Shown here: in pieces, positions 23,448-41,213 of the stretch | How positions within the stretch are numbered: the stretch's first letter is position 1 | How the letters are laid out: every line of letters begins with the position of its first letter | Source of the DNA: a virus | Length of the DNA stretch: 64,000 nt | Direction: 5' to 3' (one strand) | Virus record (IMG/VR): IMGVR_UViG_3300021962_000031 | Made by a program: the position numbers and the translations under genes | Notes under the pieces: model-generated | The model's input: the letters and a program-made list of their open reading frames with translations, nothing else | What the model was told of the DNA's origin: nothing | Database searches by the model: none

Positions 23448-23623
23448 ACAAGATGAGCGTCAACAGGTAGAAGGTGACAGAAGTCCAGATAAAGCAAACG
23501 ATCCCAATCAGGAATAGCAAAGCCAATTCTTTCAAGATTCTGATCACGGCATCCTCCAAAAAAGAAAAAGCGGGGGACAACGCATCCCCCGCTCCTTCTA
23601 AAGGGTCTCCCGCCAAGGCCCCT

Positions 23624-23989
23624 TTAGTCCTTTTGTTCGCCCCGATAGCGACTCCAGCCGTTGTGTGGGCCGTAAGTGCCGGTCTCACGGTCGGGCTGGC
23701 CGTCCTTGTCCAGCTTGCGGATGGGGAACAGACCCGAACCATCCTGGTACTGGCCGAAAGCCAACTTGGCCCGACACTTGGGATTGTTGCATTGCATCTC
23801 AAAATATTCGTATTCTTTTTTGTTTTTTGAGACTTTGCGCACCCGTGGGACGATGCGGTCTTCACCGCATGCCCCGCACTTGTGATCGCCGAAAACTTCG
23901 TGAGCAGCCGACATTTGCCGGAACAACTCCTTCGTGTCGGCGGATTCGATTTCAATCGTGCCGTAAGCGGTCGGGATGTGGGCTTTCAT
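23624..23989 (-). CDS. Hypothetical zinc-ribbon protein
   Basis: CGAC and C-x4-C pairs; follows the SSAP gene. Confidence 0.6.
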   Translation of the reverse strand: MKAHIPTAYGTIEIESADTKELFRQMSAAHEVFGDHKCGACGEDRIVPRVRKVSKNKKEYEYFEMQCNNPKCRAKLAFGQYQDGSGLFPIRKLDKDGQPDRETGTYGPHNGWSRYRGEQKD

Positions 23990-23992
23990 GCA

Positions 23993-24850
23993 TTACTCCG
24001 TGGACTTGTTAGTGTTCTTCTTCCAGTCAGGATCGTACCCTTTGAACTTGGGATCGATCTTGCTCCTATCCCTCTGAAGCTCGTTCAGATGCGCGATGAT
24101 GAGCGTTGCGCTCTTGTGGGGGATGTTCTCCAGCTTGCCGTCCCAACGGAAGCTTCGTGACGATGACAGATAGGCATCGATATTGATGTCGTTGCGCTGG
24201 CAAAGCGTCTGAATGAAGCTGTGCTGCATTTCGGTTGACTTGCCGTTGTTGGACAAATCATGATCCTGGAACAGGTTGGATGGCTCCTCAGCCGTGATCA
24301 CCCTGCGCAGGCGCAGAGCCTTGCGGAGTGCCCGTCCTTCGGCCCTAGTCTCAGCCATTGCTGTCGCAAAAATAGAAAACTTGCCGTCCGTGTTGCCTGA
24401 ATTGCAATCCGCAGCAGCCGTAAAGGTGACCTCCCTATCGGTGTGGATTGACTCGTAAGTGTACGAAAATTCAGCCACCGCCGTCATGGCGTTTTCCGGA
24501 CTGGGCGCTTGGACAATGCGGACGCTGGAGCTGACCGTCGGTCCAAGAACCAGTTCGGCCACTCGGCGCAGGCCATCGCAAGTCGGGCGCCCTTCGGGCG
24601 ACAGCTCCTCTGGCGACAACTTCGACAAGACATACTCAGTCCAGTCGGGGTCGGTCGGGCAATGCTCCTTGTAAGATTCTGGTTCAAAAGGAGGAATTTC
24701 AGGACTAGGAGTAGCAACATTCACCACGACATCGACTGGGGTAGCTGGGATTTCGTCAACGCTAACCGCCGCATCCAACGATACGGTATCCAGAACACTT
24801 TCCCCATCGAGATCATCAACGGAAACAACAGCCCCACGCTTCTTAGCCAT
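23993..24850 (-). CDS. Rad52/Sak-like single-strand annealing protein (putative)
   Basis: GLRRVA...AMAETRAEGRALRKAL motif; likely start ATG 24850. Confidence 0.55.
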   Translation of the reverse strand: MAKKRGAVVSVDDLDGESVLDTVSLDAAVSVDEIPATPVDVVVNVATPSPEIPPFEPESYKEHCPTDPDWTEYVLSKLSPEELSPEGRPTCDGLRRVAELVLGPTVSSSVRIVQAPSPENAMTAVAEFSYTYESIHTDREVTFTAAADCNSGNTDGKFSIFATAMAETRAEGRALRKALRLRRVITAEEPSNLFQDHDLSNNGKSTEMQHSFIQTLCQRNDINIDAYLSSSRSFRWDGKLENIPHKSATLIIAHLNELQRDRSKIDPKFKGYDPDWKKNTNKSTE

Positions 24851-25631
24851 CGGTCGCCACCTCAATTTCGTAATACGATCCCACCCCGGGATCATTGTCC
24901 TTCGCCAATTGTATGATGTTCAACAGCTTCTGTAAAGTATTTTTCATCCGAATTTCGGACGGACTTCCTTTAGTATCTTTGATAATAATCACTAGCAGAT
25001 TACATCCGGTCAAAAGACCGGTCTTTTTGGCGTCTGCCGCAGCCCGTTTCGCATAATAGTCATCCCCCCAGATGGGCCGATAATGGCTGGGGCCGTTAAC
25101 TTCAATCGCAACCCCCTTAAACTTTCCAACCTTACGATTAATTAATATATCGATGTGCTGCCGTTCCAGCTGAACATGAAAGTCTACGGGATAACGAGCT
25201 TGCGTCAGTCCGCGAATCAAATATTTTTCTAGTCTGCTTCCGGTATCGGCGGCTTCCCGAACGGCATCCAAAGCCTTTTTCTGCAAAGATTCTCGCCGAT
25301 CTTCCCCCATTGTTTCCCATTGCTTCTTGGAAATTTCCGAACGGCGTTTGCGTTCCTCCTCGGACATGGTTTCCCATTTCTCTGCCATTCGTTCGCCGAT
25401 TTGGGCCTTGCGCTCCGCAGAAAGCTTCTTGCCCTTGGTGGGGTGTTCCTGACGGCCAGTTTCCAAGGCGAGGACCTGAGCCTCCGACCGACTACGGACA
25501 GGGATACCAAACTTGTTCAAGGCGCGACGCACCCGGTTGGGGTAGGTGCCTAGTTCAGCGGCAATGTCGTGGGTCGAGCGTCCCTTGTTGGCGTACTCTT
25601 CAACGAGATATTCATAGGTCAAACTTGACAT
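24843..25631 (-). CDS. Free-standing endonuclease (HTH + NUMOD3-like + Vsr/DUF559-like nuclease), probable homing endonuclease
   Basis: N-terminal HTH, GKKLSAERKAQIGE repeats, HIDILI...AIEVNGPSHY nuclease motif. Confidence 0.65.
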   Translation of the reverse strand: MSSLTYEYLVEEYANKGRSTHDIAAELGTYPNRVRRALNKFGIPVRSRSEAQVLALETGRQEHPTKGKKLSAERKAQIGERMAEKWETMSEEERKRRSEISKKQWETMGEDRRESLQKKALDAVREAADTGSRLEKYLIRGLTQARYPVDFHVQLERQHIDILINRKVGKFKGVAIEVNGPSHYRPIWGDDYYAKRAAADAKKTGLLTGCNLLVIIIKDTKGSPSEIRMKNTLQKLLNIIQLAKDNDPGVGSYYEIEVATDG

Positions 25632-26080
25632 AACAACCTCTCAATCTGATCGGGATCAAAATCTTTGATGACTCTTTCGGTGTCAATCGGTCGCCCCCAG
25701 GTGTTTTCCAGAATGCGACGATGATGAAGAGATCGCGCCAACAGGGGGAAAGTCACATAGAACGGTTGCAAATCACGCCAGGCAAACCCCTCATTGCCCA
25801 ACCATTCCAAGTCCCAACAGTAAAACCAAACTTTTCGCCCAGCCGGCGAGTTGCTTACCTTGGCCAAGCTTGACAGACTGGTAACGATGACAGGCGTGTT
25901 CTGCGCATAAGCGTAGGCCGCATCAAATATTGGAAAGTGAGGTTGGGCTGGCGATGCCCCTTTGTCTTCAACAAAAACCGTTATCTCGTGGCCTCGTTTC
26001 GTAAGCTCGTTGCCACAATGAACTATGGCAAGGGAAAGGTGAGATGAAGCCAGGGTCGGGGTCAGAAAGTGGATTTTCAT
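25619..26080 (-). CDS. Glycosyltransferase (GT-B) N-terminal-like domain protein
   Basis: MKIHFL...NELTKRGHEITVF pattern; no C-terminal domain. Confidence 0.5.
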   Translation of the reverse strand: MKIHFLTPTLASSHLSLAIVHCGNELTKRGHEITVFVEDKGASPAQPHFPIFDAAYAYAQNTPVIVTSLSSLAKVSNSPAGRKVWFYCWDLEWLGNEGFAWRDLQPFYVTFPLLARSLHHRRILENTWGRPIDTERVIKDFDPDQIERLLCQV

Positions 26081-26817
26081 GGCCTCAGCACGGCACGGAT
26101 GCCCGCTCCCTGTTGACTGATTTTAAACGGCAGACGCTCAACCCCAGTAATGTTCGCAATAGCATCGTGCCATTCAGACGGAGCCAGGCAAAACAAGGTA
26201 TTTTCGCCACACCAAACACAGCCCCACGCCCCCTGCATCCTGGCGTCGGCGTAAATGCGGATAACTTCGTCTGGTGCTTGGTCGCGATAAAGCTTCCAGG
26301 CCTGTTCAAGAACATCGCCTGATTTTTCCCAATCGCCAGCAGCCATGGTTTTCACCAACATCCCAGCCATAATTGTGTAGCTGGTGGCGTGGCCAGAGTT
26401 CGGGGTTCTAACCCAGTTATTGGAGTTGCCTTCAACGCGCAGAAGAATCCCGTGTTTTTCAAGACCTTCAGCACACGGCAGCGCAAACGGACCATTGATT
26501 CCAATGCTGTCTCGTGCCACAGAAACCAGACCACCTACTCGTGAGCAAATTTCTGTCAAAGATTCCCCTTCCAGCTTGCCCGGATACCATTGCTCGTCTC
26601 TCAAGATTTTGCTTGCCAATTCGCACGCTTCTATCTGGCTCAAATGAGCGTCCGGGAAATCCTGGTAGCACTCGACTCTTTCCTTGTGGCGAACCGCCCA
26701 TACACCAGCCTTAAGATGGACGCGGATAGTATGAATTTCTCCCTCTGAAGAGCCAGATAAATCGGTGCCAACCAGAGTAAAACTATATGGGGCAAACGAC
26801 ACTTTCATTTCTGCCAT
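26077..26817 (-). CDS. GHMP/HddA sugar-kinase-like protein, degenerate
   Basis: SFAPYSFTLVGTD N-terminus, GDW...GDVLEQAWKL, GAWG, LPFKISQQG C-terminus; no recognisable PxxxGLGSS loop. Confidence 0.5.
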   Translation of the reverse strand: MAEMKVSFAPYSFTLVGTDLSGSSEGEIHTIRVHLKAGVWAVRHKERVECYQDFPDAHLSQIEACELASKILRDEQWYPGKLEGESLTEICSRVGGLVSVARDSIGINGPFALPCAEGLEKHGILLRVEGNSNNWVRTPNSGHATSYTIMAGMLVKTMAAGDWEKSGDVLEQAWKLYRDQAPDEVIRIYADARMQGAWGCVWCGENTLFCLAPSEWHDAIANITGVERLPFKISQQGAGIRAVLRP

Positions 26818-27011
26818 GCTCCGCGACCCATGGTAAAATTCTTCGTGGCCTTTATGTCTTTGTTGCTGAACTCCCAGATTTCGCCGGTCTCGTAAAGAAT
26901 GACGGCGAAGAGTTTTTCGGTCTCGACACCATAGTCGGTGACGAGCCACACCCTCCCACGGCCCTTGGGCGTGTCCACTTCTAGCGATTGCTTGGGTTCA
27001 AGAATAAACAT
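26805..27011 (-). CDS. Small hypothetical phage protein (68 aa)
   Basis: MFILEPKQSLEVDTPKGRGRVWLVTDYG...; fills the gap between coupled neighbours. Confidence 0.6.
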   Translation of the reverse strand: MFILEPKQSLEVDTPKGRGRVWLVTDYGVETEKLFAVILYETGEIWEFSNKDIKATKNFTMGRGAWQK

Positions 27012-27687
27012 CTTCGTAGACGATCCTCGAGTCTCGTTCGCAAAGTCTGGCATAGAGGTCCTTGTCTTCGGACCAACTTTCGCCCGTCCAGAATTGGAAA
27101 CCTTCATGGCGTGCTTTGTAGGTGCTGGCATTCTCATAACCTCCCATGACGTAGTACCAGCGGCAGCCGTTTGACCGGGCAAGCGTGGCCTCGACATATG
27201 TACTAACCGAGCCGAGGGAGAGCTTGGGGTCGGCATAGTCCCAGGCGAACTGAACGCCAACGAAGGAGCGCGGATAGCTAAGGTAGGCAACGAAGGCGAC
27301 CGCCTTGCCATCCACCTTGTAGGTGAGCCAGGAAAACTCTCGGTTGGCCGCCAGTTCCTCAAAAACATGCCCGCTTGCGAACTCGTGGCGAACAAGATAA
27401 CCAGCTACGATCCGCTCGTAAGCATCCTTGTCAGGCTTTTCCGCATGCCAACTGGCGCATTTTAAAGCCCGACGAAAGTTTTTCTCGGCCGTGCGCCCGA
27501 AGCTCATGCGCTCCAGATCGTAACGGACGGAACGAGCAGGGAACCATTTGCCAGCCCACGGCAGAAATCCCATCTCTAGCATCTGATCGTGGGATTCACC
27601 CTCCTGGATGACCCAGCAGGGGGCGTGAATCAGATCGTGCTGGGTGATCTTGCCCCAGCCCTCAATATGATCAAACTCGATCTTCAT
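26998..27687 (-). CDS. ATE1/Bpt-like aminoacyl-tRNA-protein transferase (GNAT fold)
   Basis: MLEMGF, SVRYDL, DGKAVAF, FAWDYADPKLSLGSVS...LARSNGCRWYYVMGGYENASTYK matches the ATE1/Bpt C-terminal signature. Confidence 0.7.
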   Translation of the reverse strand: MKIEFDHIEGWGKITQHDLIHAPCWVIQEGESHDQMLEMGFLPWAGKWFPARSVRYDLERMSFGRTAEKNFRRALKCASWHAEKPDKDAYERIVAGYLVRHEFASGHVFEELAANREFSWLTYKVDGKAVAFVAYLSYPRSFVGVQFAWDYADPKLSLGSVSTYVEATLARSNGCRWYYVMGGYENASTYKARHEGFQFWTGESWSEDKDLYARLCERDSRIVYEDVYS

Positions 27688-28297
27688 CGGGCGGAAAACA
27701 TGGTGCGTCAGTACTACTCAAAACCTCCAAATCGGCATCGACAGCTTTGCCAAGGGCAGGTCGGGCACCATCTAGAACGAACACAGCGGCGTCCACCCAA
27801 GGCCAGTGACGAATATCATCAGGCGCATATTCGCCAGTAATCACGCAAAATGGTTCTTGATCGACTTGGATTTCTGGCGTCTGATGGCGCAACTTCAAGC
27901 AGGCTTGCTTGTAGTCTTCCGGTAGCCAGTAGCTGTAGGGGTCATAATCCAAGATAATTCTTTCTGTCTTGTAAATCTTGGCTTTGCCGAACTCGGCTTT
28001 CTCCAATTCTGCCAAGGCTTCTGCTGTCAACAGGGCGCGATGACTGAGCAGAACCGGGTGTTGCGATTTGGCCAAATGGCACACGGCCAAATAACCAGCT
28101 GTACCTGCGGGACAAATCGCCAGCTTCCAGAAAAACCGGGAACTAAAAGCCTTCAAGATTGGCAGAATTTCTCTTGGCTTGCCTTCCCAAGGCACAATGA
28201 CTTCAGTTTCAGGTGATGGACGATAAGCAGCAATCATGGATAGACACCGGGTCAGAGTGTCGAGATTTTCCGGCTTGTCCAAAACAATGCTCAGCAT
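27671..28297 (-). CDS. Hypothetical protein, possibly a degenerate GT-A fold
   Basis: MLSIVL...TLTRCLSMI...TEVIV start; inside the GT cluster. Confidence 0.4.
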   Translation of the reverse strand: MLSIVLDKPENLDTLTRCLSMIAAYRPSPETEVIVPWEGKPREILPILKAFSSRFFWKLAICPAGTAGYLAVCHLAKSQHPVLLSHRALLTAEALAELEKAEFGKAKIYKTERIILDYDPYSYWLPEDYKQACLKLRHQTPEIQVDQEPFCVITGEYAPDDIRHWPWVDAAVFVLDGARPALGKAVDADLEVLSSTDAPCFPPDEDRV

Positions 28298-29091
28298 GTC
28301 AGCATGGCCCTCATGAACGCCTGGGCAGAATCGACCGGCGTGTACTGAATAAACAAATCAACCAACTCACCAAAGACTTCTTGTCGTTCAAATTCGCTGC
28401 TAAGAACGAGGTCTTCGACAAGCTTTATGTAAGTTTCAGGAAGGTTGCGAGAAGTCGGAAGGGAATTGTCTCCGGCAACTACAGGGATAGTCCCCACTCG
28501 CAATGTCTCGTAAATTTTACGAACATCACTCGCCTCATCGGCAGACATGGCATGTACATAGGTCGAGGCCAAGGCACGCGCTCTTTCCTCGGTTGTCAGA
28601 GAGCCAGCGTAGTATGGAACAGGCCACGGCTTGTCGGCGTAGATACGGGCCACAAAACTCTCATTCTCAAACAGAGGGATAAAAAAAGCATCGTAGCCCG
28701 GACGGTATTGATCCAGAAAAATCACATCGGTCGCCAAATCGTTGCAATAAAGCGACTTGCCATCCAAACACATGAAAGGCCAACGGATGACAGGCAGCCC
28801 CTGCTCGTTGTCGTCGGTGGTGAACAGAAATGCCCCTGGCGGCAGCTTGTCCAAGAAAGTGAAACTATCCTGCCACAAGGCCAGTCGGCACTTGCCCTGA
28901 TTGCGAAGCAGGGCGGGTGTGATGGCGGATGTCGGGCCGATAAAAAGGTCGGGTTTCTGTCTGGCAAAGGCCTCGTGGGTGGGCATCTTTGACGGAACCC
29001 ACAGGGCCGCATCATGTCCAAGCTGAACAAAACCGCGTGCCAAGGCGCCTGTCCCCACACCATTGTCATCATTCTCAATGAGAATATTCAT
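28291..29091 (-). CDS. GT-B glycosyltransferase-like protein (CgeB-like)
   Basis: LARGFVQLGHD, KPDLFIG, RKIYETLRVG motifs. Confidence 0.5.
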   Translation of the reverse strand: MNILIENDDNGVGTGALARGFVQLGHDAALWVPSKMPTHEAFARQKPDLFIGPTSAITPALLRNQGKCRLALWQDSFTFLDKLPPGAFLFTTDDNEQGLPVIRWPFMCLDGKSLYCNDLATDVIFLDQYRPGYDAFFIPLFENESFVARIYADKPWPVPYYAGSLTTEERARALASTYVHAMSADEASDVRKIYETLRVGTIPVVAGDNSLPTSRNLPETYIKLVEDLVLSSEFERQEVFGELVDLFIQYTPVDSAQAFMRAMLTC

Positions 29092-29861
29092 GCTGTCACG
29101 CCCTTGCGCCTTAGCTTGGTAACCAAACTTTTAGCTCGTTCAATATCCTGAGTGCTGTCAATTTCTACGAGATTGGTCTTGTCTGGGTAAGCCGGCACAA
29201 TGATGCCATGCGCGTCAATAATTCCGTTAAGAACCTCATAGGCAAACCAACGGGCACTCTGATTGCGCGAAGCAACTCGCCGATACAAGTCAAGTTCCTT
29301 GTCTGCCAGTTGCACGGCCTGACCCCATTTGGGCCAGACCCCATAGCTGAAATGGCAGACTCGTTCTTGGTCGATGTTGCATCCGACTTCGCCAGAACGA
29401 TGATTCTGATTCTCGTCAATAATTGCGGCAGAACCTTCTTCTGGTAGGCATTCAAGAAAATCGGGTCCAAAAACCAAATCTCCACACATCAAAATCACCT
29501 TCTTGGCGTTTGCGTGATTTACGCCAACAAGGAGAGAGCGGGCCACATTGGTATCTTCGTGGGATGAGTTTTCTACCCAGCCAACATCCTTTGGCAAAAC
29601 CTTTATCACCCGATCCTTCTGGTAGCCAACAACCACGATGATTTCAGCTTTTGGCAATGCCTTGCGGGCGAACACAATCTGGCGACTGAGAACGGTCTCG
29701 CCGCCGCCGATTTCGATAAGGGCTTTTGGGCCTCGGGCCTTCATGCGGCGCCCAGCCCCAGCCGCGCTAATTACGACAGCAAGGTCTGGCAATGGCGATC
29801 CCTCATGATTTTTACCTGTTTGGCCATGAACTCGGATGGTGTGCGCCTGCTGAGCTGCCAT
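29088..29861 (-). CDS. Nucleotidyltransferase (LicC / sugar-phosphate NTP-transferase family)
   Basis: ISAAGAGRRMK..GPKAL, VVVGYQ, GDLVF, VEIDSTQD motifs. Confidence 0.85.
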   Translation of the reverse strand: MAAQQAHTIRVHGQTGKNHEGSPLPDLAVVISAAGAGRRMKARGPKALIEIGGGETVLSRQIVFARKALPKAEIIVVVGYQKDRVIKVLPKDVGWVENSSHEDTNVARSLLVGVNHANAKKVILMCGDLVFGPDFLECLPEEGSAAIIDENQNHRSGEVGCNIDQERVCHFSYGVWPKWGQAVQLADKELDLYRRVASRNQSARWFAYEVLNGIIDAHGIIVPAYPDKTNLVEIDSTQDIERAKSLVTKLRRKGVTA

Positions 29862-30520
29862 GTTCCTTCGTTGACGCTCATCATTGGATCGGGCAGATGT
29901 AGGATGACCCGGTCAGCAGCGATTCGCATCCACAATTCATAATCTTCGGCGGGAGGCAGGGCTTCATCGTACAAGCCGACATTTTCCAGAGCAGATTTGC
30001 GAATCACGCAAGCGGAATGAACCATGTTGTCAAAAAAGAGTTCTCGTTTTACGAACGCCTTTTTGCAATGGCGGAACGAGACGCCATCACGCACCTGGAA
30101 GTAATCGGTATAAACCGCACCGGCCATCTCTCCATACTTTTCCAGTAGGTCTACGCAGGCTTTCAGTCTGCCTGGAAGGAAACGGTCGTCCGCATCCAAA
30201 ATGGCAAAATATTTTGTCTTATCCCAACTGACTTTGATGGCCACATTTCGTGCAGCCGCTGGCCCTTGGGATTGGTGGGCAGAGAAAAGATTAACTTGGA
30301 CATCCTTGATCGTGCCGCGGACAAAAGGTATTTGCAAAATTTCATCGTGGGCGGCGTTTTCCATTGATCCCAAAAGAGTGCGCACGGAGTCATCGGTTGA
30401 GCCATCATCAACAACAACGACCAGTCCTGGCTTTTCTGCTGCGGCTGATTCAACCGCGCCCACCAGAAAATGGCCGTAGTTGTGATTAGCAATCACAACC
30501 GCAACATCCTCAAGCGACAT
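29771..30520 (-). CDS. GT2 glycosyltransferase
   Basis: VVDDGSTD, GPAAARN, LDADD, EDYELWMR. Confidence 0.9.
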   Translation of the reverse strand: MSLEDVAVVIANHNYGHFLVGAVESAAAEKPGLVVVVDDGSTDDSVRTLLGSMENAAHDEILQIPFVRGTIKDVQVNLFSAHQSQGPAAARNVAIKVSWDKTKYFAILDADDRFLPGRLKACVDLLEKYGEMAGAVYTDYFQVRDGVSFRHCKKAFVKRELFFDNMVHSACVIRKSALENVGLYDEALPPAEDYELWMRIAADRVILHLPDPMMSVNEGTWQLSRRTPSEFMAKQVKIMRDRHCQTLLS

Positions 30521-31307
30521 GAGGAAGTTTTCCGTCGATGATCAGGTATTTGGAATTCTGTGCCTGAGCGATTCGCCTCAGCTTTTCGGATATGCTGGCG
30601 ATCTTCTCTTCGGTCCCTTCCCAAACCACTTCGTGGAAGCCTCCGGCCATGTTGAAGGCCATGGTTTGCACAAGCGTGCCATGAATCATGCCGGGGTCCA
30701 CCAACACAACCCGCTGCCCCTGATCGTTGATGAGATGATCAAGATCGGACAGGTAACAGTTTTCCAGTTCCTTGCCAGCCTCGGCAAACAAGATGAAAAC
30801 CGATTTCAGGTTGTTCCCTGCCCCCTCCTGAAGCGAGTCAAGTTCGGTGTATGATTCGTCCATTACAAATCGCAGCGAGTAGGGATAAGACAGGGACAAG
30901 TCGCGCAGGGTGGCCAGAACATCCTTGGGCTTGACCACGGAACGGGGAGTGATAACGAACACAACTTCGTTCGGCTTAAGGCTTTGCTGCTCCAACATTT
31001 CTGCGGTGCGGGCGACATCAGACAATTCGCCACGCTCACAGGAGACGATGGCGGCGACGGCAAGGACTCGTTCCTTTCGCGCCTCGGCTATCGCTTGACC
31101 ATCTTCAAGTTCCTTCATCCAATCCAAAGGACGGAATAGGGGGCAGAACCGATCAATCGTTTTGTAGGACTTTGTCCCGCCGATGTCTTCTAGCTCAATC
31201 TTTCCTTCTGACCGAAAATAGTCCAGCATGTTAGCGCGACAGCCGGTCTGGTCTCCGCTGACATTACGAATGGCGAAACGACATTTTTCACACGAAGTGC
31301 TGATCAT
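30510..31307 (-). CDS. Hypothetical protein with N-terminal Cys cluster and degenerate GT2-like domain
   Basis: CEKC...C...C; LEQQSLKPNEVVFV; FNMAGGF; no DxD. Confidence 0.45.
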   Translation of the reverse strand: MISTSCEKCRFAIRNVSGDQTGCRANMLDYFRSEGKIELEDIGGTKSYKTIDRFCPLFRPLDWMKELEDGQAIAEARKERVLAVAAIVSCERGELSDVARTAEMLEQQSLKPNEVVFVITPRSVVKPKDVLATLRDLSLSYPYSLRFVMDESYTELDSLQEGAGNNLKSVFILFAEAGKELENCYLSDLDHLINDQGQRVVLVDPGMIHGTLVQTMAFNMAGGFHEVVWEGTEEKIASISEKLRRIAQAQNSKYLIIDGKLPHVA

Positions 31308-31756
31308 TGACGGATGGCCTCCACATAGCTGGTGAAATCGCTGACATAGGAACGGACGGGGGTCATGCCCAGGCTACTGAGCATGGTGCGAAGCTGGGGC
31401 AGAGTTCCTGCGCTGGTGCGCCTTTGTCCGCCGCCACCGCCGTAAATGAGTTGTATAAAATCAGAAATGTCGCCCAGAGTGACTTTCCGACAAACCTCAA
31501 CAATCTCGCGAGTGCCGACAACCATCACGCCGCCTCTCGCTAGTCTGGAGACCCAGTGGGTCAACAGCTTGGTGCGGAACTCAAAAGGGTAATAATCCAA
31601 GACATCGGTCGCTTGGATTTCCAGGGCCTCGCCCTCTTCGGCAAGCTGACTAAGATCGGCAGGATTGCCGGGTGATTCTTGACTGGCTGGATCGACCTCG
31701 ATAAAGCCGGGTAGGCCGAGCTTTTGGCCTCCCACAGTCATGCGGATTTTGACCAT
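31304..31756 (-). CDS. Class I SAM methyltransferase-like protein, degenerate
   Basis: EIQATDVLDY...LLTHWVSRLARGG pattern; poor Gly-rich motif I. Confidence 0.55.
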   Translation of the reverse strand: MVKIRMTVGGQKLGLPGFIEVDPASQESPGNPADLSQLAEEGEALEIQATDVLDYYPFEFRTKLLTHWVSRLARGGVMVVGTREIVEVCRKVTLGDISDFIQLIYGGGGGQRRTSAGTLPQLRTMLSSLGMTPVRSYVSDFTSYVEAIRQ

Positions 31757-32769
31757 TGCTTCCTCCACCACGGTGCGCGGGCGGCAACTTGCAATGCCTG
31801 TCCCCACTCCCGAACAAAACGCTCCAAACCAAACCGCTGACGGGCCTTTTCCGCAGCAGCTCTACCGATTACCTCGCAGTAGGCGGGATTGCCCAAAAGC
31901 CTTTTGACAATAGCGTTCATTTCCTCGGGAGTGTCCACAAGGAAACCGGTCACGCCATGTTCAATGGCTTCGGTCACCGCCCCAGCCCGGTAGGAAACAA
32001 CACAACAGCCAGAGGCCATGGCCTCAAGGACGGTGGTCGGGAAGGTGGAGCGGGTGGCCGTGTTCAGGAATATCAGACTTGTGCGGTATGCCTCGGTCAG
32101 CTCTTGCACGTTGGCGGCAGCTTTGGACAGCCCGGGCGTATCGCCCAGAACACGAGTGGAAAGATCGGCAGTAGCCAGTTTCCAGAATGAGAAACCGCAA
32201 GCGGCGTCTCGCTTGATCCAGTCGTTGACAACGCTCAGGCAGATCGGTTCACGCGGCACCCAAGGCTCATGCGGACAAAACTGATTCGTGTCAATGGCGT
32301 TGTATATGACACTAGTGTCGGGAAGGACCTGACTGTCCCATTCCAGTCGCTGATTGTCGGTGATGTAGACATTGTGGTCACCACGCCGAGAAGACACTGC
32401 ACGCCGGGTATTTTCGTCCCAGCCTTCTTCGGGCAAGGTGTGTTCCAAACGCAAGAGCGGCACATTGTAGAAGGTCGCAGCCTGTAAAGCCCGGTCAAAC
32501 TGGCTATGGTGTTGACATAAGACGAGGTCCAAATCAATTTCTACGGGAATGGCTGGCGACGACGGATGGAAGGGGAGCAGCACATGATTGTCCGGCATGG
32601 CGGCGTAGTGATGCACCCAGGGCTTGGCGTACTGGTCGTTCCACAACAAAAAAGTAGCGTTTATATCAGCCCAGGCACTCTGAAACCGTTCGTGCGTGGT
32701 AAAGGTCAGGACATTGACCCTCTCCGGCGAACGAACGGCGCTATTCAGAATGCTGGCTATGTTGGGCAT
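31738..32769 (-). CDS. GT4 glycosyltransferase
   Basis: IYNAIDTNQF, FPTTVLEAMASGCCVV, HGVTGFLV. Confidence 0.9.
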   Translation of the reverse strand: MPNIASILNSAVRSPERVNVLTFTTHERFQSAWADINATFLLWNDQYAKPWVHHYAAMPDNHVLLPFHPSSPAIPVEIDLDLVLCQHHSQFDRALQAATFYNVPLLRLEHTLPEEGWDENTRRAVSSRRGDHNVYITDNQRLEWDSQVLPDTSVIYNAIDTNQFCPHEPWVPREPICLSVVNDWIKRDAACGFSFWKLATADLSTRVLGDTPGLSKAAANVQELTEAYRTSLIFLNTATRSTFPTTVLEAMASGCCVVSYRAGAVTEAIEHGVTGFLVDTPEEMNAIVKRLLGNPAYCEVIGRAAAEKARQRFGLERFVREWGQALQVAARAPWWRKQWSKSA

Positions 32770-32834
32770 AACAGTATCCGTTAATAGCGGCCGAAGCGAC
32801 CGCTGCTAACGATCTTACCCGGGAAGAGGGAGGC

Positions 32835-33578
32835 TTAGTCTCCCAAACGCTCAAGGATATGGCGAATTAAGCCATGGCGCTGAACGTCTTCTGGCCCCAG
32901 AGTGACCTTGGCGATGTCAGGATGACCCAACTTTTCCCACACCCAGATGAGCGGATTGCCTTCGCTGTGGGGCAAGTCTGTCTGGGTAACGTCTCCGCAA
33001 ACAATGACCTTGGAGTTCTCGCCGAATCGGGTCAAAAACATCTTCATCTGTCGGCGGGTTACATTCTGAGCCTCGTCCAGAATGATCACCGAGTTATGAA
33101 ATGTCCGACCGCGCATCGTTTCCAGGGGGACCACTTCAATGGTCTCTTTGTTGCGACAGTGCTTAAGAAAGCCAGGGTCAAGAAAATCCCCGAAGGCATC
33201 AAACATGGGGGCCATGAAAGGATCGGTCTTTTCGCCCAAAGTTCCAGGCAGGGCGCCCAGTCTTTGACCACATTCCACGATGGGGCGGGTAAGAATAACC
33301 TTCTCAATCTTGTTTTCAGACAACCAGTTGGCGGCCAGACCGCAGGGGATATAGGTTTTGCCACATCCAGCTGGGCCGGTGCAGATTGTTAATGTGCAAG
33401 CCTCGATGTTGTTGATGTAGTTCTGTTGGTTGGGCGTCCGAGCCTTAATTTTTTTGGTGTTCTTCTTGGATACAGCCCGTTGTTCGACGTCGGCGTCTCG
33501 TGCTTCCTGCCAAGGAATCTGGTCTTCGCCATCGAAGTCCTCAAGGAAGTCCGTCCACAGCTTGTTTTTGCGTCGCAT
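32835..33578 (-). CDS. phoH: PhoH-family ATPase
   Basis: GPAGCGKT, LGALPG, MRGRTF, LDEAQN, GDVTQTD. Confidence 0.95.
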   Translation of the reverse strand: MRRKNKLWTDFLEDFDGEDQIPWQEARDADVEQRAVSKKNTKKIKARTPNQQNYINNIEACTLTICTGPAGCGKTYIPCGLAANWLSENKIEKVILTRPIVECGQRLGALPGTLGEKTDPFMAPMFDAFGDFLDPGFLKHCRNKETIEVVPLETMRGRTFHNSVIILDEAQNVTRRQMKMFLTRFGENSKVIVCGDVTQTDLPHSEGNPLIWVWEKLGHPDIAKVTLGPEDVQRHGLIRHILERLGD

Positions 33579-34668
33579 GGGTTAAAGCCTCCAGGAAGGT
33601 CTTGCCGACCTTCAGGGGGTTGAATTGGAACGCCACATCCAGACCCCGCGCCGCTTTTACCTGGCGAAGGTCGTCCTCCATGTAAGCCCTTCGCATCAGC
33701 CCAGCCATCTCCAAAGTGAACGGAACCTGCCAATACTCGTCGCCACGGTACAGTTCGGCAGGTTCGTCCTGCCCTCCCGTACAAGGCTCGTCGTAAGTTG
33801 GAATCAGATAACCGGTCTCCTCGGAGATATAGGACTGATATGTTCCGGTGTCGGGTACGATGGGGGTTTTGCCCATCGCCATAGCATCGAATGCGGGATA
33901 TGACCAAGCTTCGCCACAGGAAGCCTGGACAAAACAGTTGGCGTATGCGTGGAGGCCCATGAGTTCGTCCTCACTCAATCTTTCGGTGAGAACGACAACC
34001 TCCGGCAGATAGTGAAGCTTCATTCCGTTGGCGATTTCTTGCATCATCGCCTGGACGCGGTGTTGTTCACCGTTTGTCTTAATGATGAGGACTGTATTGT
34101 CGGTGGGTCGGAATGCGCTGAAATAACTTTTGATCAGACCGCCCAAGTTCTTGCGCCGAACATTTTCGCTAATCGTGTAGAAGATAAATTTGCCAGCCTT
34201 GACATAAGGCTGGAGAAAACTGGGGACTGTGTGGGTTTTCATGTAGCGGTCGGGATCGCTGGGCAAGGGCAGGCTAGCCACAGGGACTTTGACATTGCTG
34301 TTCTTACAGGCCTCGGTCGAGATACCGGGCGTGGTGACCACAAGGTCCATCTGATTCAAACGCAGGTCCCACCCCGCCGAATTAAAGCGGGAAGCCTCGT
34401 AATAAAAGTTGGCCACATTCAGACCCAGTCTGCGGTCGAACAAGGTGACTGACGGGAGGGTGTGCTGGATGACCACATCCCATTTGGTGGGCGGGTTTTT
34501 TTCTTCCAGTCGATAGATTCTTTCTGGGCAGGATTGTTGACCGCCATTGAAAGTGATTGGACGACAGACGACATTGGCCCCGGCTGTCTCCAAAGCAATG
34601 GCTGATTCGCAACAAGCTCTTGCGTAGCCTGTGCCGTCGTGAAAATTTCCCACATAGAGAATATTCAT
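33541..34668 (-). CDS. GT4 glycosyltransferase
   Basis: GTGYA, RRKNLGGLI, SCGEAWSYPAFDAMAMGK. Confidence 0.88.
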   Translation of the reverse strand: MNILYVGNFHDGTGYARACCESAIALETAGANVVCRPITFNGGQQSCPERIYRLEEKNPPTKWDVVIQHTLPSVTLFDRRLGLNVANFYYEASRFNSAGWDLRLNQMDLVVTTPGISTEACKNSNVKVPVASLPLPSDPDRYMKTHTVPSFLQPYVKAGKFIFYTISENVRRKNLGGLIKSYFSAFRPTDNTVLIIKTNGEQHRVQAMMQEIANGMKLHYLPEVVVLTERLSEDELMGLHAYANCFVQASCGEAWSYPAFDAMAMGKTPIVPDTGTYQSYISEETGYLIPTYDEPCTGGQDEPAELYRGDEYWQVPFTLEMAGLMRRAYMEDDLRQVKAARGLDVAFQFNPLKVGKTFLEALTHATQKQAVDGLP

Positions 34669-36263
34669 GACCGCTGAGCCTCCCAGAACTCCACACGCTC
34701 ACGCTCCGCACAAAGTTGCGCCCAGGCATGCTTCCGTTCGTAGCCGCCCAGTCTGCCGCCAGGCCCGAAGCCGGTAAAACGTCCGGGAGTGAAGGTGGTA
34801 TCGCAAAAAGTCCTTGAGAGGTCTCGGGTCATTCTCTGAGCCACAAAACCAGCCTGGGCCGAAGAAATACCCAGGGCTGACTGAAACGCCTCGTCAACCC
34901 ACTCTCTGTTAGTGAGATGATCAGGGGGCATTTGCAGAGGTGGCAATTTTCGTGCAGTATCTTGATATCTTTTTATAGGTGGTGAAAGTTTACTGATTGC
35001 ATTGTGCCAAATCCCACCCGCTAGATCATAGTCAAAAGTTTTGATGGCCAAATCTCGTTGCTTGGAGCCAATTGCTCTACGAGCAGCTGGAGGCAACAAA
35101 AGAAGGTTGTTCAAAATTGCGATAAGATCATCGTTTTTAGGTAGGGCCATAACTCGGCCCGTTTCCAGTTCGGTGAATGTGCGCTCGACCGAAATGGCTT
35201 GGGCATCCAAAGCGGACGCCACACTGGACATGGCAGTAAAATCGACCGAGGTCACCGGAACACCACAGGAGGCAGCTTCCACCTGGGGCATTCCAAATCC
35301 CTCGCAGACCGAGTATTGTACGAACACGTCCATGGATGAATACACCGGGCGCATGAACGCACGGGGCAGGCCAGCAGCCACGCCGGGAGTGGTTAATTCC
35401 CCACTAGCACAGAAGGGGCAGTACCCCGAAGGTAGCTGCCAAAGCAAGGCAGAGGCCCTGTCGCACTTCTTGCACGCAAAAGTAAACAGGGTTCTGTGGG
35501 CCACATTGTAGCGAAGAAGGTATTTAGGGATGTCCCACCCAACATCCGGCCATGCCGTGTGACAATATAGATACAATCGATTGGCAATATGGGCTGGTGC
35601 GGACAGCAAGAACTTCTCAAAAGTTTCAAATAAATCCGGCAACAATTTCCGGCCTTGGTTTCGCATGACCGTCCCAATAACTAGGGCATCCTGCGAGATG
35701 TTGAGGGCCTTTCGCGCCTCCTTTTGGTCAAGTGGATGAAACACATCCGGCTCAGCACCAGGAGAAGCAACCCCAAACAAATTAAGACCAGGAAACTTCT
35801 TCAGGACGTCAAAACCATACTGAGAGTAAGCGAGAATCGCATCGGCACGGTTGAGAATCGCAATCCATTCCTCATCTTGCGGCTCACCGTCTACTGGATG
35901 CATGAATACCCAACGGAAATAGTCGCGCAGGGGAGAATAGGCGATGAACGAATCCTGCCACGGATCACGCATGGAGATCACGACATCGGGCCGGAACTTC
36001 ACCACCGCTTCCTCAAAAGCCGTAGCTCCAAGAGCGGCGTTGGAGTTAATCAACGCAGACGATGGATAATCATCACCTCTGGTAGTCACAAAAAAGGCGG
36101 GCCAGGGAGACCCGGCCCGCCTTGGATCGTTTGGAGTGCCGTAACACGCCAATTCACCGATTTCGTGACCAACAGCTTTTAGTCTTCGGGCGATCTGTAG
36201 CGCATAAGTGGCGTAGCCGGTTTGCAGCCAAGTCGCCTCGCCAACTAGAAGGATGCGGGCCAT
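34665..36263 (-). CDS. GT4 glycosyltransferase with a zinc-ribbon insertion
   Basis: TGYA, RNQGRK, EGFGMPQVEAASCG; CKKC...CPFC insertion. Confidence 0.9.
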   Translation of the reverse strand: MARILLVGEATWLQTGYATYALQIARRLKAVGHEIGELACYGTPNDPRRAGSPWPAFFVTTRGDDYPSSALINSNAALGATAFEEAVVKFRPDVVISMRDPWQDSFIAYSPLRDYFRWVFMHPVDGEPQDEEWIAILNRADAILAYSQYGFDVLKKFPGLNLFGVASPGAEPDVFHPLDQKEARKALNISQDALVIGTVMRNQGRKLLPDLFETFEKFLLSAPAHIANRLYLYCHTAWPDVGWDIPKYLLRYNVAHRTLFTFACKKCDRASALLWQLPSGYCPFCASGELTTPGVAAGLPRAFMRPVYSSMDVFVQYSVCEGFGMPQVEAASCGVPVTSVDFTAMSSVASALDAQAISVERTFTELETGRVMALPKNDDLIAILNNLLLLPPAARRAIGSKQRDLAIKTFDYDLAGGIWHNAISKLSPPIKRYQDTARKLPPLQMPPDHLTNREWVDEAFQSALGISSAQAGFVAQRMTRDLSRTFCDTTFTPGRFTGFGPGGRLGGYERKHAWAQLCAERERVEFWEAQRS

Positions 36264-38332: not shown

Positions 38333-38985
38333 GCGATCAGGGTGCTTTTGGCACACGCCCCCTTGAAGTTGATCTTTTCAGCGTAAAAACGATGCACTTT
38401 TAAGAAACGGACAATCAATTCTGCCGTCTGTTTCGTGTCTATCATCGCCGAGTGCGCCCCATCCTTGCTCAATCCGAAATAACCGCGAAGCGTATCCATC
38501 TTGCGGTCGGGCAGTTCCTCGCTGTTGTGAAACCAGAACTCCAGCATGTCTTCAAGGTCATAGACCTTTCGGCGATGGAAAAGGTTTTGATCACCGTTCT
38601 TGTCGGTGAAACCATACTTCTGACACAAGCGATTGAAGATTGGCAGATCAAACAGTCGGATGTTTTTGCCAGCGGCAATAGGGGCCGACCCGAACGAATT
38701 ACCCTTGGGATTGAACCGCTTGATGAAGGTGGCAAAGCTCCTCCAAACGGCCTCCTGCTCAGGGGCTTTTTTCAATTGATCCCGCGTCTTACCGTTGACG
38801 GCCAGAGCCTGGTCTTGCAGGAGAGAGAAATCAGTCGGCTTGCACAGGCTGTAGAATGTGCCATCGGGCACGACCGACAGAGTCCGCGGGTTGATCGCCA
38901 CCGCAGCAATCTCAATCGGTTCGGTGGTCCTGATGTCAAGACCACCAGTCTCAAAATCAAAACAAATGATGATGTTACTGGTCAT
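38329..38985 (-). CDS. DEDDh 3'-5' exonuclease (DnaQ/epsilon-like)
   Basis: FDFETGG, NIRLFDLP, AHSAMID. Confidence 0.9.
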   Translation of the reverse strand: MTSNIIICFDFETGGLDIRTTEPIEIAAVAINPRTLSVVPDGTFYSLCKPTDFSLLQDQALAVNGKTRDQLKKAPEQEAVWRSFATFIKRFNPKGNSFGSAPIAAGKNIRLFDLPIFNRLCQKYGFTDKNGDQNLFHRRKVYDLEDMLEFWFHNSEELPDRKMDTLRGYFGLSKDGAHSAMIDTKQTAELIVRFLKVHRFYAEKINFKGACAKSTLIA

Positions 38986-41193: not shown

Positions 41194-41213
41194 CAATCCC
41201 CACCTTCCCCTGC

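What the first reader, a model, noticed from the sequence alone, without database searches (positions are those of the whole stretch)
26998..27687. Phage-encoded ATE1/Bpt-like aminoacyl-tRNA transferase
Seen: the C-terminal signature WDYADPKLSLGSVS...ARSNGCRWYYVMGGY....YK, but not the N-terminal Cys cluster of cellular ATE1/Bpt. Established: these enzymes add Arg or Leu to protein N-termini to create N-degrons. Inference: the phage may redirect host ClpS-ClpAP proteolysis, for example against defence proteins. Alternatively, given its position in the glycan cluster, it may aminoacylate a glycan or virion protein in a tRNA-dependent way.
Basis: partly seen in the sequence, partly recalled or inferred. 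Interest (0 to 1): 0.72.

Follow-up and report, generated by a model that had tools for sequence, protein, structure and literature searches.

The report
Virus-only cysteine-free ATE/Bpt-like transferase module
This freshwater phage carries a stripped-down, cysteine-free relative of the enzymes that move an amino acid from a charged tRNA onto another molecule. It is co-translated with a tiny barrel-shaped partner protein, belongs to a large unstudied virus-only family, and probably does not work as the classic tag for protein degradation.

Summary
Window 26998-27687 (-) is a real 229-aa gene under purifying selection (dN/dS 0.09-0.15). It has the ATE_C-type motifs and no Cys cluster.

It is a full-length homologue of Bpt/ATE1:
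- hhalign against Bpt gives 98.8% probability, E 7e-17.
- The AF2 model matches human ATE1 at Z 16.2 over 215 residues.
- It keeps the catalytic Tyr-Lys, the basic tRNA helix and an Ate1-like donor pocket.
- It has lost the Zn/Fe-S cysteines, and Leu-Pro replaces the Arg that reads acidic N-termini.

The family occurs in at least 543 IMG/VR contigs. I found it in no cultured phage and no PHROG.

Its closest cellular kin are cysteine-free Patescibacteria proteins (E 1e-33). Three of the five I checked sit beside Mur ligases, MurA or alanine racemase.

Glycosyltransferase-rich surroundings hold for only one of the two main clades. Complete phages of the other clade have no GT1 or GT2 match.

In 31 of 36 non-redundant loci, an overlapping 64-73-aa SH3/Tudor-like ORF follows the gene. 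Here it lies at 26805-27011.

Best reading: a tRNA-dependent aminoacyl transferase module whose acceptor is not an acidic N-terminus. The acceptor remains unresolved. The scan noted related virus-only ATE-like genes earlier on other DNA.

The parts
26998..27687 (-). ATE/Bpt-like, cysteine-free aminoacyl-transferase gene (229 aa, P0001)
   Evidence: ORF and translation. Pfam Acetyltransf_6 E 7.5e-6 and ATE_C E 8.3e-5. A family profile hits only ATE1 chains in the PDB, E 2.3e-6. AF2 model pLDDT 81. Best fold match is human ATE1, Z 16.2. hhalign against Bpt gives 98.8%. dN/dS is 0.09-0.15.
27559..27570 (-). G40-F41-L42-P43, the counterpart of GFRRSG in Bpt/ATE1. The Arg that recognises acidic N-termini is replaced.
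   Evidence: hhalign column mapping. Position 42 is L/I/A and position 43 is P/L/I in 110 relatives. All nine Bpt sequences have RR here. The role of klAte1 R80 is taken from PMC9351520.
27523..27546 (-). W48-F49-P-A-R52-S-V-R55. This is where the 8-residue Cys segment of Bpt (RPhCxxCx) is deleted. R52 and R55 are invariant.
   Evidence: hhalign shows the 8-residue gap. R52 and R55 are present in 110 of 110 relatives. R55 aligns with the conserved Bpt Arg, while R52 is specific to this family.
27454..27516 (-). Basic helix (residues 58-78; 6 K/R against 2 D/E), the counterpart of the tRNA acceptor-stem helix of ATE1/Bpt
   Evidence: AF2 predicts a helix at 65-77. The family median is 5 K/R against 1 D/E in a protein of pI about 6. 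The segment aligns to the F.P.RSQRR helix of Bpt. The helix role is taken from PMC9351520 and PMC10115844.
27115..27258 (-). GNAT motif-A region with the donor pocket (G144, S162, E166, Y178), W149, and the catalytic Y190-K191
   Evidence: HMM alignment to klAte1, with residue roles from PMC9351520. K191 is present in 109/110, Y179 in 109/110 and E166 in 86/110 relatives. Pocket table by clade.
26805..27011 (-). Overlapping partner ORF, 68 aa, SH3/Tudor/KOW-like small beta-barrel with a T-P-K-G hairpin. Its ATG overlaps the last 14 nt of the transferase gene.
   Evidence: Sequence. The same overlapping ORF is found in 31 of 36 non-redundant loci across all four contexts. Alignment A2 has mean column identity 67%. 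AF2 pLDDT 81, five strands. Fold matches are generic small beta-barrels, Z at most 6.2. No Pfam or PDB sequence match. There is a single copy in this genome.
27671..28297 (-). Upstream gene (208 aa), GT-A/GT2-like lead. Its stop overlaps the transferase start by 17 nt.
   Evidence: ORF coordinates. No Pfam hit. In the ESM Atlas feature search, all ten best family-bearing hits are GT2, scores 0.94-0.95. This is a lead only.
26077..26808 (-). Downstream gene. The real start is probably Met48 of the listed ORF. GHMP-kinase / cytidylyltransferase-like lead.
   Evidence: Homologues start at MKVSF.... The Atlas holds the sequence from residue 48 on, and its neighbours are GHMP or cytidylyltransferase clusters at 0.91-0.93. 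This is a lead only.
23563..36123 (-). Long minus-strand gene block of sugar-activating and glycosyltransferase genes, plus PhoH and an HNH-like gene, in which the module sits. It is bounded by strong terminator-like hairpins.
   Evidence: Gene order and overlapping stops and starts. GT2 and NTP_transf_3. GT1 and PhoH. Terminator-like sites at 36123-36094, 23599-23563 and 23442-23418, with none as strong in between. The same gene order occurs in related contigs L002-L004.

Best explanation
The gene encodes a minimal, cysteine-free member of the ATE1/Bpt branch of GNAT-fold aminoacyl-tRNA-dependent transferases. It belongs to a virus-restricted family.

Inferred mechanism:
- The basic helix (residues 58-78) docks the acceptor stem of a host aminoacyl-tRNA.
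- The aromatic residues W149 and Y190 hold the CCA end.
- The aminoacyl side chain sits in a polar pocket (G144/S162/E166/Y178). This pocket resembles the arginine pocket of Ate1 more than the leucine pocket of Bpt.
- K191 stabilises the tetrahedral intermediate while a nucleophile of the acceptor attacks the ester.

The acceptor is not the acidic protein N-terminus of canonical ATE1/Bpt, because the recognising Arg and the metal-binding Cys cluster are gone. The acceptor-side residues are invariant in all phage clades, whether or not the phage has glycosyltransferases. The enzyme therefore appears to serve one common acceptor.

The gene travels as a two-gene module with an overlapping 64-73-aa SH3/Tudor-like protein. 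That protein is most simply either its substrate or its targeting subunit.

Shown here: homology, fold, residue conservation, distribution and the gene pairing. Inferred: tRNA dependence, the donor class, the nature of the acceptor and the role of the partner.
For: Homology and fold:
- A family profile hits only ATE1 chains among PDB sequences (E 2.3e-6).
- Foldseek's top hits are ATE1, then MprF, FemX and Sba18. All of these are aminoacyl-tRNA-dependent enzymes.
- VIA-align scores human ATE1 at Z 16.2, rmsd 3.9, with 215 of 229 residues aligned. Ordinary acetyltransferases score Z 11 or less.
- hhalign against nine canonical Bpt sequences gives 98.8%, E 7e-17, over residues 29-210.

Active-site residues:
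- Y190-K191 aligns with klAte1 Y303-K304 and W149 with W260 (roles from PMC9351520). K191 is present in 109/110 relatives.
- The acetyl-CoA pyrophosphate motif [QR]xxGx[GA] is absent in 81 of 83 members.

Loss of N-degron features:
- RR is replaced by LP and the Cys segment is deleted.

Common acceptor:
- Acceptor-side residues are identical in all clades, while three of the four donor-pocket positions (144, 162, 178) differ between clade A+D and clade B+C; E166 is kept.

Two-gene module:
- The overlapping small ORF follows the gene in 31 of 36 loci, across four different genomic contexts.
- Both paralogous copies in a 221-kb contig keep their own partner.
Against: - No biochemical data exist for any member of the family.
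- The Pfam ATE_C score is just under its cut-off (23.6 against 25). The only family above its cut-off is the generic Acetyltransf_6.
- E166 is kept even in clades whose pocket is otherwise Bpt-like (A/A/E/V), and one Bpt also has Glu there. It is therefore not a safe marker of an Arg donor.
- In 28 of 76 informative loci found through the small partner, no ATE-like gene lies upstream. Carbamoyltransferases or unknown genes lie there instead. Overlapping stops and starts are common in phages, so the pairing may be partly plain linkage.
- The Mu Mom study warns that GNAT substrates cannot be predicted from structure (PMC13219725).
Confidence: 0.6

Rival explanations
1. Glycan reading. In this phage clade the enzyme uses aminoacyl-tRNA to N- or O-aminoacylate a nucleotide-sugar or glycan intermediate made by the surrounding operon. 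The result would be an amino-acid-decorated glycan, for instance on the phage's Thr-rich fibres.
For: - The gene lies inside a roughly 12.5-kb co-directional block. That block holds a GT2, an NTP_transf_3 nucleotidyltransferase, several GT1 genes, a GT-A-like lead directly upstream and a GHMP-like lead downstream.
- The gene order is the same in related contigs.
- The sister group D also sits among glycosyltransferase, sulfotransferase and methyltransferase genes.
- Clade A+D has its own polar donor pocket.
- FemX-like enzymes that aminoacylate an amino sugar are known (Sba18/Sbb17) and are structural neighbours.
Against: - Clades B and C keep identical acceptor-side residues but lie next to exonuclease, PhoH and terminase genes or small phage genes.
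- Two complete genomes of those clades have no GT1 or GT2 match. The same search finds 3 GT2 genes in this phage.
- The link between context and pocket rests on a single split in the tree.
Confidence: 0.2
2. Fem-like reading. As inferred for its closest cellular relatives, the enzyme aminoacylates a peptidoglycan precursor of the host (UDP-MurNAc-peptide or lipid II). This would remodel or sabotage the wall during infection.
For: - The phage family is far closer to the cysteine-free Patescibacteria-type group than to Bpt: hhalign 99.9%, E 1e-33, 220 columns, including GFLP, ARSxR and the GFExWxGxxWSxD tail, against E about 1e-14 for Bpt.
- Phage and Patescibacteria-type sequences form one clade, support 0.986.
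- Three of five such cellular genes checked lie beside Mur ligases and MurA, or alanine racemase with a VanY-like peptidase.
- A host precursor would be a universal acceptor, which fits the invariant acceptor side.
Against: - No Mur or other wall gene lies next to any phage copy.
- Two of the five cellular loci show no wall context.
- The function of the cellular group is itself only inferred.
- This reading does not explain the phage-specific small partner.
Confidence: 0.15
3. Canonical N-degron reading. The enzyme adds a destabilising residue to protein N-termini so that host ClpS-ClpAP degrades chosen host or defence proteins.
For: - All biochemically characterised members of the ATE1/Bpt superfamily modify protein N-termini.
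- The N-domain that binds the peptide in ATE1 is structurally retained (Z 16.2 over residues 1-221).
- In group C a 148-aa HExxH protein, a possible peptidase that could expose new N-termini, lies directly upstream.
Against: - The Arg equivalent to klAte1 R80 is Leu, Ile or Ala in the whole family.
- The Zn/Fe-S cysteines are absent, and there is no ATE_N match.
- The phage has no ClpS.
- An Arg-type donor would not by itself make a bacterial N-degron (established Leu/N-degron rules).
- The nearest kin are not in proteolysis contexts.
Confidence: 0.15
4. The protein is an ordinary acyl-CoA-dependent GNAT acyltransferase with no tRNA dependence.
For: The only Pfam family above its curated cut-off is Acetyltransf_6 (26.6 bits against 22). 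Many acetyltransferases appear as weaker fold matches, Z 8-11.
Against: - The best structural and sequence matches are all aminoacyl-tRNA-dependent enzymes.
- The CoA pyrophosphate-binding motif is absent in 81 of 83 members.
- The FemX/ATE1-type catalytic Lys and the basic tRNA helix are conserved.
Confidence: 0.08
5. Mom-like reading. The enzyme uses aminoacyl-tRNA to hypermodify phage DNA bases.
For: Phage Mu Mom is a GNAT that transfers glycine from Gly-tRNA to adenine in dsDNA (PMC13219725). In groups B and D the gene lies next to DNA-metabolism genes, namely an exonuclease and a DenV-like glycosylase.
Against: Mom is not among the listed structural neighbours. The protein is acidic overall, pI about 6. 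No DNA-binding insertion is seen.
Confidence: 0.05

Closest known systems
Bacterial Bpt (Asp/Glu-specific leucyl-tRNA-protein transferase; Pfam ATE_N + ATE_C)
   Same: Similar size (229 aa against about 235-260 aa). Homologous over nearly the whole length (hhalign 98.8%, E 7e-17, 181 columns). Shares the His near the N-terminus, the G-F motif, the conserved Arg (R55), the basic helix, SLG, Y-x-x-G-Y, Y-K and the E...W tail.
   Different: The C..C..C segment is deleted and there is no first Cys. GFRRSG becomes GFLP. R52 and the WWTGxxWSxD...LCxRDS tail are specific to the phage family. The donor pocket is G/S/E/Y rather than A/A/Q/L. The family is virus-only and is followed by a small partner gene.
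Eukaryotic arginyltransferase ATE1 (K. lactis 7WFX/7WG1, S. cerevisiae 7TIF, human 8TZV)
   Same: Best structural match (Z 16.2 and 13.9; Foldseek E 1.6e-9). It is the only PDB family hit by the sequence profile. Counterparts of klAte1 K304, Y303 and W260 are kept, and three of the four Arg-pocket residues (S273, E277, Y289) are kept.
   Different: The phage protein is less than half the size and has no C-terminal variable domain. It lacks the Zn/Fe-S cysteines C23/C26/C95/C96 and has no counterpart of R80. The fourth pocket residue is Gly, not Ser.
Cysteine-free ATE-like proteins of Patescibacteria and other uncultured bacteria (uncharacterised; one is annotated 'arginine-tRNA-protein transferase', MDB4984273.1)
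   Same: Closest relatives by sequence (hhalign 99.9%, E 1e-33, full length), and one clade with the phage family. They share GFLP, ARSxR and the GFE-W-G-WS-D tail, and also lack a Cys cluster.
   Different: They are cellular. Three of five checked lie next to Mur ligases, MurA or alanine racemase. They have no small partner ORF, and their donor pocket is more hydrophobic.
FemX/FemABX, MprF (aa-PG synthase), Sba18/Sbb17: aminoacyl-tRNA-dependent GNATs with non-protein acceptors
   Same: Same catalytic GNAT core and conserved Lys. Next-best structural neighbours, Z 11.5-13.7. They set the precedent for sugar-linked, lipid or peptide-stem acceptors.
   Different: They align only over the GNAT core (residues about 32-203). 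Their acceptor domains differ, and no sequence-level match was found.
Phage Mu Mom (Gly-tRNA-dependent DNA adenine modification, PDB 8BV8)
   Same: A phage-encoded GNAT that takes an amino acid from host aminoacyl-tRNA for a non-translational purpose (PMC13219725).
   Different: It is not a detectable relative here. Mom has an HTH-like insertion, forms dimers and acts on dsDNA.

Membership tests
ATE1/Bpt aminoacyl-tRNA-protein transferases | ATE_C (PF04377) match above the Pfam gathering score | tested here: not met
   23.6 bits against a cut-off of 25, E 8.3e-5, residues 117-184. Twelve of 21 close homologues carry a precomputed PF04377 hit. The NCBIfam arginyltransferase models score 17-18 bits against cut-offs of 170-252.
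ATE1/Bpt aminoacyl-tRNA-protein transferases | Significant profile-level and fold-level homology to the family over most of the length | tested here: met
   hhalign against nine Bpt sequences gives 98.8%, E 7e-17, 181 columns. The PDB profile search hits only ATE1. Human ATE1 scores Z 16.2 over 215 residues.
ATE1/Bpt aminoacyl-tRNA-protein transferases | ATE_N domain with the conserved Cys cluster (Zn or Fe-S site) | tested here: not met
   No ATE_N hit in the protein or anywhere in the phage genome. No CxxC or CC motif in the family. The 8-residue Cys segment is deleted in the hhalign alignment.
ATE1/Bpt aminoacyl-tRNA-protein transferases | Basic residue that recognises the acidic N-terminal residue (klAte1 R80, first R of GFRRSG) | tested here: not met
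   The aligned position is L42, and it is L/I/A in 91 of 110 relatives. The next position is P43. All nine Bpt sequences have RR. The role is taken from PMC9351520.
ATE1/Bpt aminoacyl-tRNA-protein transferases | Catalytic Lys of the Y-K motif (klAte1 K304, FemX K305) | tested here: met
   Y190-K191 aligns to klAte1 Y303-K304. K191 is present in 109/110 and Y190 in 98/110 relatives.
ATE1/Bpt aminoacyl-tRNA-protein transferases | Transfer of Arg or Leu from aminoacyl-tRNA to Asp/Glu N-termini | not testable with these tools
   This needs an in vitro assay with aminoacyl-tRNA and peptides.
Aminoacyl-tRNA-dependent GNAT transferases (ATE, LFTR, Fem, MprF class) | Positively charged helix that binds the tRNA acceptor stem | tested here: met
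   Predicted helix at 65-77. Residues 58-78 have 6 K/R against 2 D/E, and the family median is 5 against 1, in an acidic protein. The segment aligns to the Bpt RSQRR helix. This is a test at the sequence level only.
Aminoacyl-tRNA-dependent GNAT transferases (ATE, LFTR, Fem, MprF class) | Lacks the acetyl-CoA pyrophosphate-binding motif [QR]xxGx[GA] of CoA-dependent GNATs | tested here: met
   The motif is absent in P0001 and in 81 of 83 family members.
Aminoacyl-tRNA-dependent GNAT transferases (ATE, LFTR, Fem, MprF class) | Dependence on aminoacyl-tRNA as donor | not testable with these tools
   Inferred from homology only. The phage genome encodes one ordinary tRNA (Met), so host tRNAs would be used.
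Cysteine-free Patescibacteria-type ATE-like proteins | Full-length profile homology, including GFLP, ARSxR and the C-terminal GFE..G..WS.D tail | tested here: met
   hhalign 99.9%, E 1e-33, 220 columns. One clade with support 0.986.
Cysteine-free Patescibacteria-type ATE-like proteins | Genomic linkage to peptidoglycan-precursor genes | tested here: not met
   No Mur, Alr or other wall gene lies beside any of the 36 non-redundant phage loci. Three of five cellular loci do have such neighbours.
Pfam Acetyltransf_6 (PF13480, FemAB/BioF2-like GNAT) | Match above the gathering score | tested here: met
   26.6 bits against 22, but only residues 107-191 and profile positions 61-142. This is a generic clan-level match.
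Mom-like tRNA-dependent DNA-modifying GNATs | Structural or sequence similarity to Mu Mom | tested here: inconclusive
   Mom is not listed among the fold or sequence matches shown. Absence from a list does not exclude a relationship.

The most novel reading that the evidence does not exclude
The transferase and its overlapping SH3/KOW-like partner would form a writer-substrate (or writer-reader) pair. The enzyme would take an amino acid from host aminoacyl-tRNA and attach it to a side chain at the T-P-K-G hairpin tip of the small protein, or to a target that the small protein binds. The hairpin recalls the modified loop of EF-P/eIF5A. This would be a new tRNA-dependent protein side-chain modification, used by many aquatic phages.
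Probability: 0.12. Interest if true: 0.85.

Novelty: new variant of a known kind. Interest (0 to 1): 0.62.

Why it matters
- Enzymes that divert charged tRNA away from the ribosome are few: ATE1, Bpt, LFTR, Fem, MprF, cyclodipeptide synthases and, recently, Mu Mom. Each discovery opened a new piece of biology.
- This is a large family: at least 543 viral contigs and 442 representatives at the 50% identity level. It is seen almost only in viruses, has no cultured member and no PHROG, and has lost exactly the features that tie ATE1/Bpt to acidic N-termini.
- It clusters with uncharacterised bacterial proteins that sit in cell-wall operons.
- Working out its donor and acceptor would show what aquatic phages do with host aminoacyl-tRNA.
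- It would also test whether the ATE/Bpt fold began as, or repeatedly became, something other than an N-degron enzyme.
- The enzyme plus the 68-aa partner is a small system that can be expressed and tested directly.

Tried and rejected
- **PHROGs and cultured phages.** PHROGs has no family for the protein or for most neighbours. tblastn of three divergent members against 50,697 GenBank phage records found nothing.
- **ATE_N and ClpS.** Neither was found in the phage genome.
- **Fused forms.** A search among proteins of 446 aa or more found none. This is weak evidence.
- **Remote homology between neighbour gene clusters of the four contexts.** None reached more than 80% probability. My ORF caller in that step (at least 70 aa, overlap filter) missed the small partner, which I found later by a targeted scan.
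- **E166 as proof of an Arg donor.** Weakened, because clades B and C have A/A/E/V and one Bpt also has Glu at this position.
- **Carbamoyltransferase as a swap for the ATE-like gene in a syntenic glycan operon.** Rejected. Those contigs share no other protein with this region.
- **Comparing T-P-K-G conservation with and without an upstream ATE-like gene.** Uninformative, because the scan pattern itself required TPKG.
- **The small partner.** It has no Pfam or PDB sequence match and only generic small-barrel fold matches.
- **Genome G044 (unpublished).** It appeared in the tally.
Full report
**Observation.** The minus-strand ORF at 26998..27687 encodes 229 aa. The protein has four scattered Cys and no CxxC or CC motif. 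Twenty-one close homologues, all from metagenomes, start at the same Met. dN/dS against close relatives is 0.09-0.15. The window belongs to a complete 149,106-bp virus record with direct terminal repeats. That record encodes a PolIII-alpha-like polymerase, primase, DnaB, RNR, PhoH and a terminase-like ATPase.

**Homology and fold.** Pfam gives Acetyltransf_6 above its cut-off and ATE_C just below its cut-off. A profile of the family hits only ATE1 chains among all PDB sequences, E 2.3e-6. The AF2 model has pLDDT 81 and pTM 0.80. Its best match is ATE1 by Foldseek (E 1.6e-9), followed by MprF, FemX and Sba18. VIA-align gives human ATE1 Z 16.2 with 215 of 229 residues aligned and K. lactis Ate1 Z 13.9. 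It gives MprF 13.7 and FemX 12.7, and Z 11 or less for ordinary acetyltransferases. I took nine canonical Bpt genes from bacterial genomes. hhalign of a 110-member family alignment against them gives 98.8% probability, E 7e-17, covering residues 29-210. The protein is therefore a full-length homologue of Bpt/ATE1 and not just a GNAT.

**Residue-level comparison.** I used the klAte1 mutagenesis paper (PMC9351520) and the yeast ATE1-tRNA structure paper (PMC10115844).
- Kept: Y190-K191 (klAte1 Y303-K304, the FemX-type catalytic Lys), W149 (klAte1 W260), and the basic helix after R55.
- Lost: the 8-residue segment that carries two of the three Cys of the Bpt C..C..C motif is deleted. The first Arg of GFRRSG (klAte1 R80, essential for reading Asp/Glu N-termini) is L42, followed by P43, throughout the family.
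- Donor pocket: the side-chain pocket is S255/S273/E277/Y289 in klAte1 and A/A/Q/L in Bpt. It is G144/S162/E166/Y178 in this phage, which makes it Ate1-like. Clades B and C have A/A/E/V, and one Bpt has Glu at this position. Glu alone is therefore not a safe sign of an Arg donor.
- The CoA-binding motif [QR]xxGx[GA] is absent in 81 of 83 members.

**Distribution.**
- A profile search of 1.8 billion representative proteins finds 442 relatives at E 1e-3 or better. Of the 150 best that were listed, the full-length ones are about 200-280 aa and lack the Cys cluster.
- At least 543 IMG/VR contigs encode a relative.
- Only 7 loci were found in genomes of 185,579 species. All 7 are in MAGs. The one I examined (L006) has phage-like neighbours.
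- No member is detectable in 50,697 GenBank phage records, and no PHROG matches.
- I found no paper that describes a phage ATE/Bpt-like enzyme in the library searched.

**Closest cellular kin.** A lead from earlier notes of this scan was that cysteine-free ATE-like genes sit in Patescibacteria mur operons. I tested it here. The weakest listed hits of my own profile search form a cysteine-free cellular group. One of them is annotated as a Patescibacteria arginine-tRNA-protein transferase. The phage family matches this group at hhalign 99.9%, E 1e-33, over the full length, against E about 1e-14 for Bpt. The two form one clade with support 0.986. Of five cellular loci inspected, three lie next to cell-wall precursor genes:
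- One is translationally coupled to a Mur ligase.
- One lies between Mur ligases, downstream of MurA.
- One lies directly after alanine racemase and near a VanY-like peptidase.
- Two show no such context.

**Context and the glycan question.** In this phage the gene lies in a long co-directional block running from about 36.1 kb to 23.5 kb. The block is bounded by strong terminator-like hairpins. It holds a GT2, an NTP_transf_3 enzyme, several GT1 genes and PhoH. A GT-A-like lead lies directly upstream, overlapping the gene by 17 nt, and a GHMP-like lead lies downstream. The gene order is conserved in related contigs. Across 36 non-redundant loci there are four contexts:
- Clade A (this phage) sits in the sugar-gene block described above. 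Clade D also sits among sugar-modifying genes.
- Clade B lies between an exonuclease or PhoH and the terminase and portal genes.
- Clade C lies among small phage genes.

Two complete genomes of clades B and C have no GT1 or GT2 match, whereas the same search finds three GT2 genes in this phage. Acceptor-side residues (H7, G40, W/F41, R52, R55, E198, W200, W205, D208, D219) are the same in all clades. Three of the four donor-pocket positions (144, 162, 178) differ between A+D and B+C, while E166 is kept. I infer one common acceptor class, independent of phage glycosyltransferases, and a donor that differs by clade.

**The partner gene.** A targeted scan showed that a 64-73-aa ORF starts within the last few to about 30 nt of the transferase gene in 31 of 36 loci, in all four contexts. 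Here it lies at 26805..27011, with a 14-nt overlap.
- It is well conserved. Alignment A2 has invariant E5, E11, V12, T14, P15, G17, G19, W22, G28, E30, W46, N58, T60 and R63.
- It folds as a five-strand small barrel, pLDDT 81.
- Its fold matches are only generic Tudor, SH3 or KOW barrels, Z at most 6.2. Related uncharacterised phage proteins appear in BFVD.
- It has no Pfam or PDB sequence match.
- Both paralogous modules in a 221-kb contig keep their own partner.

The dependence runs one way. Among 76 informative loci found through the small protein, 48 have the ATE-like gene directly upstream. The other 28 have other genes upstream, including NodU/CmcH-type carbamoyltransferases. The pair is thus the only conserved unit around the transferase. 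Phage gene packing and linkage may explain part of this.

**Interpretation.** The protein is most likely an aminoacyl-tRNA-dependent transferase whose acceptor is not an acidic protein N-terminus, working with the small barrel protein. The acceptor could be any of the following:
- the partner, or a target it binds;
- a host wall precursor, as inferred for the nearest cellular kin;
- in this clade, a sugar intermediate of the surrounding operon;
- a non-acidic protein N-terminus.

My evidence does not decide among these. The phage encodes only one ordinary tRNA (Met, outside the window) and no ClpS.

**Novelty and caveats.** This is a new, virus-restricted variant of a known enzyme kind. Earlier notes of this scan flagged related virus-only ATE-like genes on other DNA, and the same kind of gene in glycan clusters of two other genomes. 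I did not check those. All functional statements rest on homology.

Noticed in passing
L121:68-1734, L125:26-1746 (IMG/VR contigs): Close homologues of the small SH3-like partner (about 75% identity to the window's copy) directly follow NodU/CmcH-type carbamoyltransferase genes with a 4-nt overlap, instead of an ATE-like gene. The small protein may therefore serve several kinds of modifying enzyme.
   Followed up: partly
L083:1801-2244 and other group C loci: A conserved 148-aa protein with an HExxH motif (MHETMHM), a possible small metallopeptidase, lies directly upstream of the ATE-like gene in group C phages. It has no Pfam match.
   Followed up: no
L034, L033, L057, L051, L084 (group B loci); window 32835-33578: PhoH lies immediately upstream of the ATE-like gene in several group B phages, and in the same operon about 5 kb away in this phage. 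It is within 6 kb in 11 of 36 non-redundant loci, but these represent only about three independent lineages.
   Followed up: partly
IMGVR_UViG_3300024509_000007 (L021/L135 and L029/L147); IMGVR_UViG_3300024358_000009 (L140, L145): A 221-kb phage contig carries two diverged copies of the whole transferase-plus-partner module. A second contig of 206 kb carries two copies of the small partner; only one of its ATE-like genes was among the loci I listed.
   Followed up: partly
window 36710-38356 and 39268-41262, with ORF 38329-39012 between: The PolIII-alpha-like DNA polymerase is encoded in two separate ORFs with another ORF between them. Related contigs show a faint intein-splicing hit on the polymerase.
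   Followed up: no
window 24843-25631: A 262-aa protein that matches PHROG families labelled HNH endonuclease, with weak HTH and restriction-endonuclease-like Pfam hits, sits inside the sugar-gene operon. It may be a mobile insertion.
   Followed up: no
window 26077-26949: The listed GTG start of this ORF is probably wrong. Homologues and the Atlas record begin at Met48 (about 26808). The 189 nt between that start and the transferase stop are filled by the small partner ORF.
   Followed up: yes
window 826-12432: A single 3868-aa ORF with no PHROG match among its downstream neighbours.
   Followed up: no
G000:C1:113258-113329 (outside the window): The whole 149-kb phage genome has only one ordinary tRNA gene (Met, CAT). 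ARAGORN's intron mode also proposes three long intron-bearing candidates, which I did not examine.
   Followed up: no
L106:8001-8750, L107:3871-4581, L110:4001-4792: Cysteine-free ATE-like genes of uncultured bacteria overlap or abut Mur ligase, MurA or alanine racemase genes. This hints at a tRNA-dependent step in wall-peptide synthesis in those organisms.
   Followed up: partly
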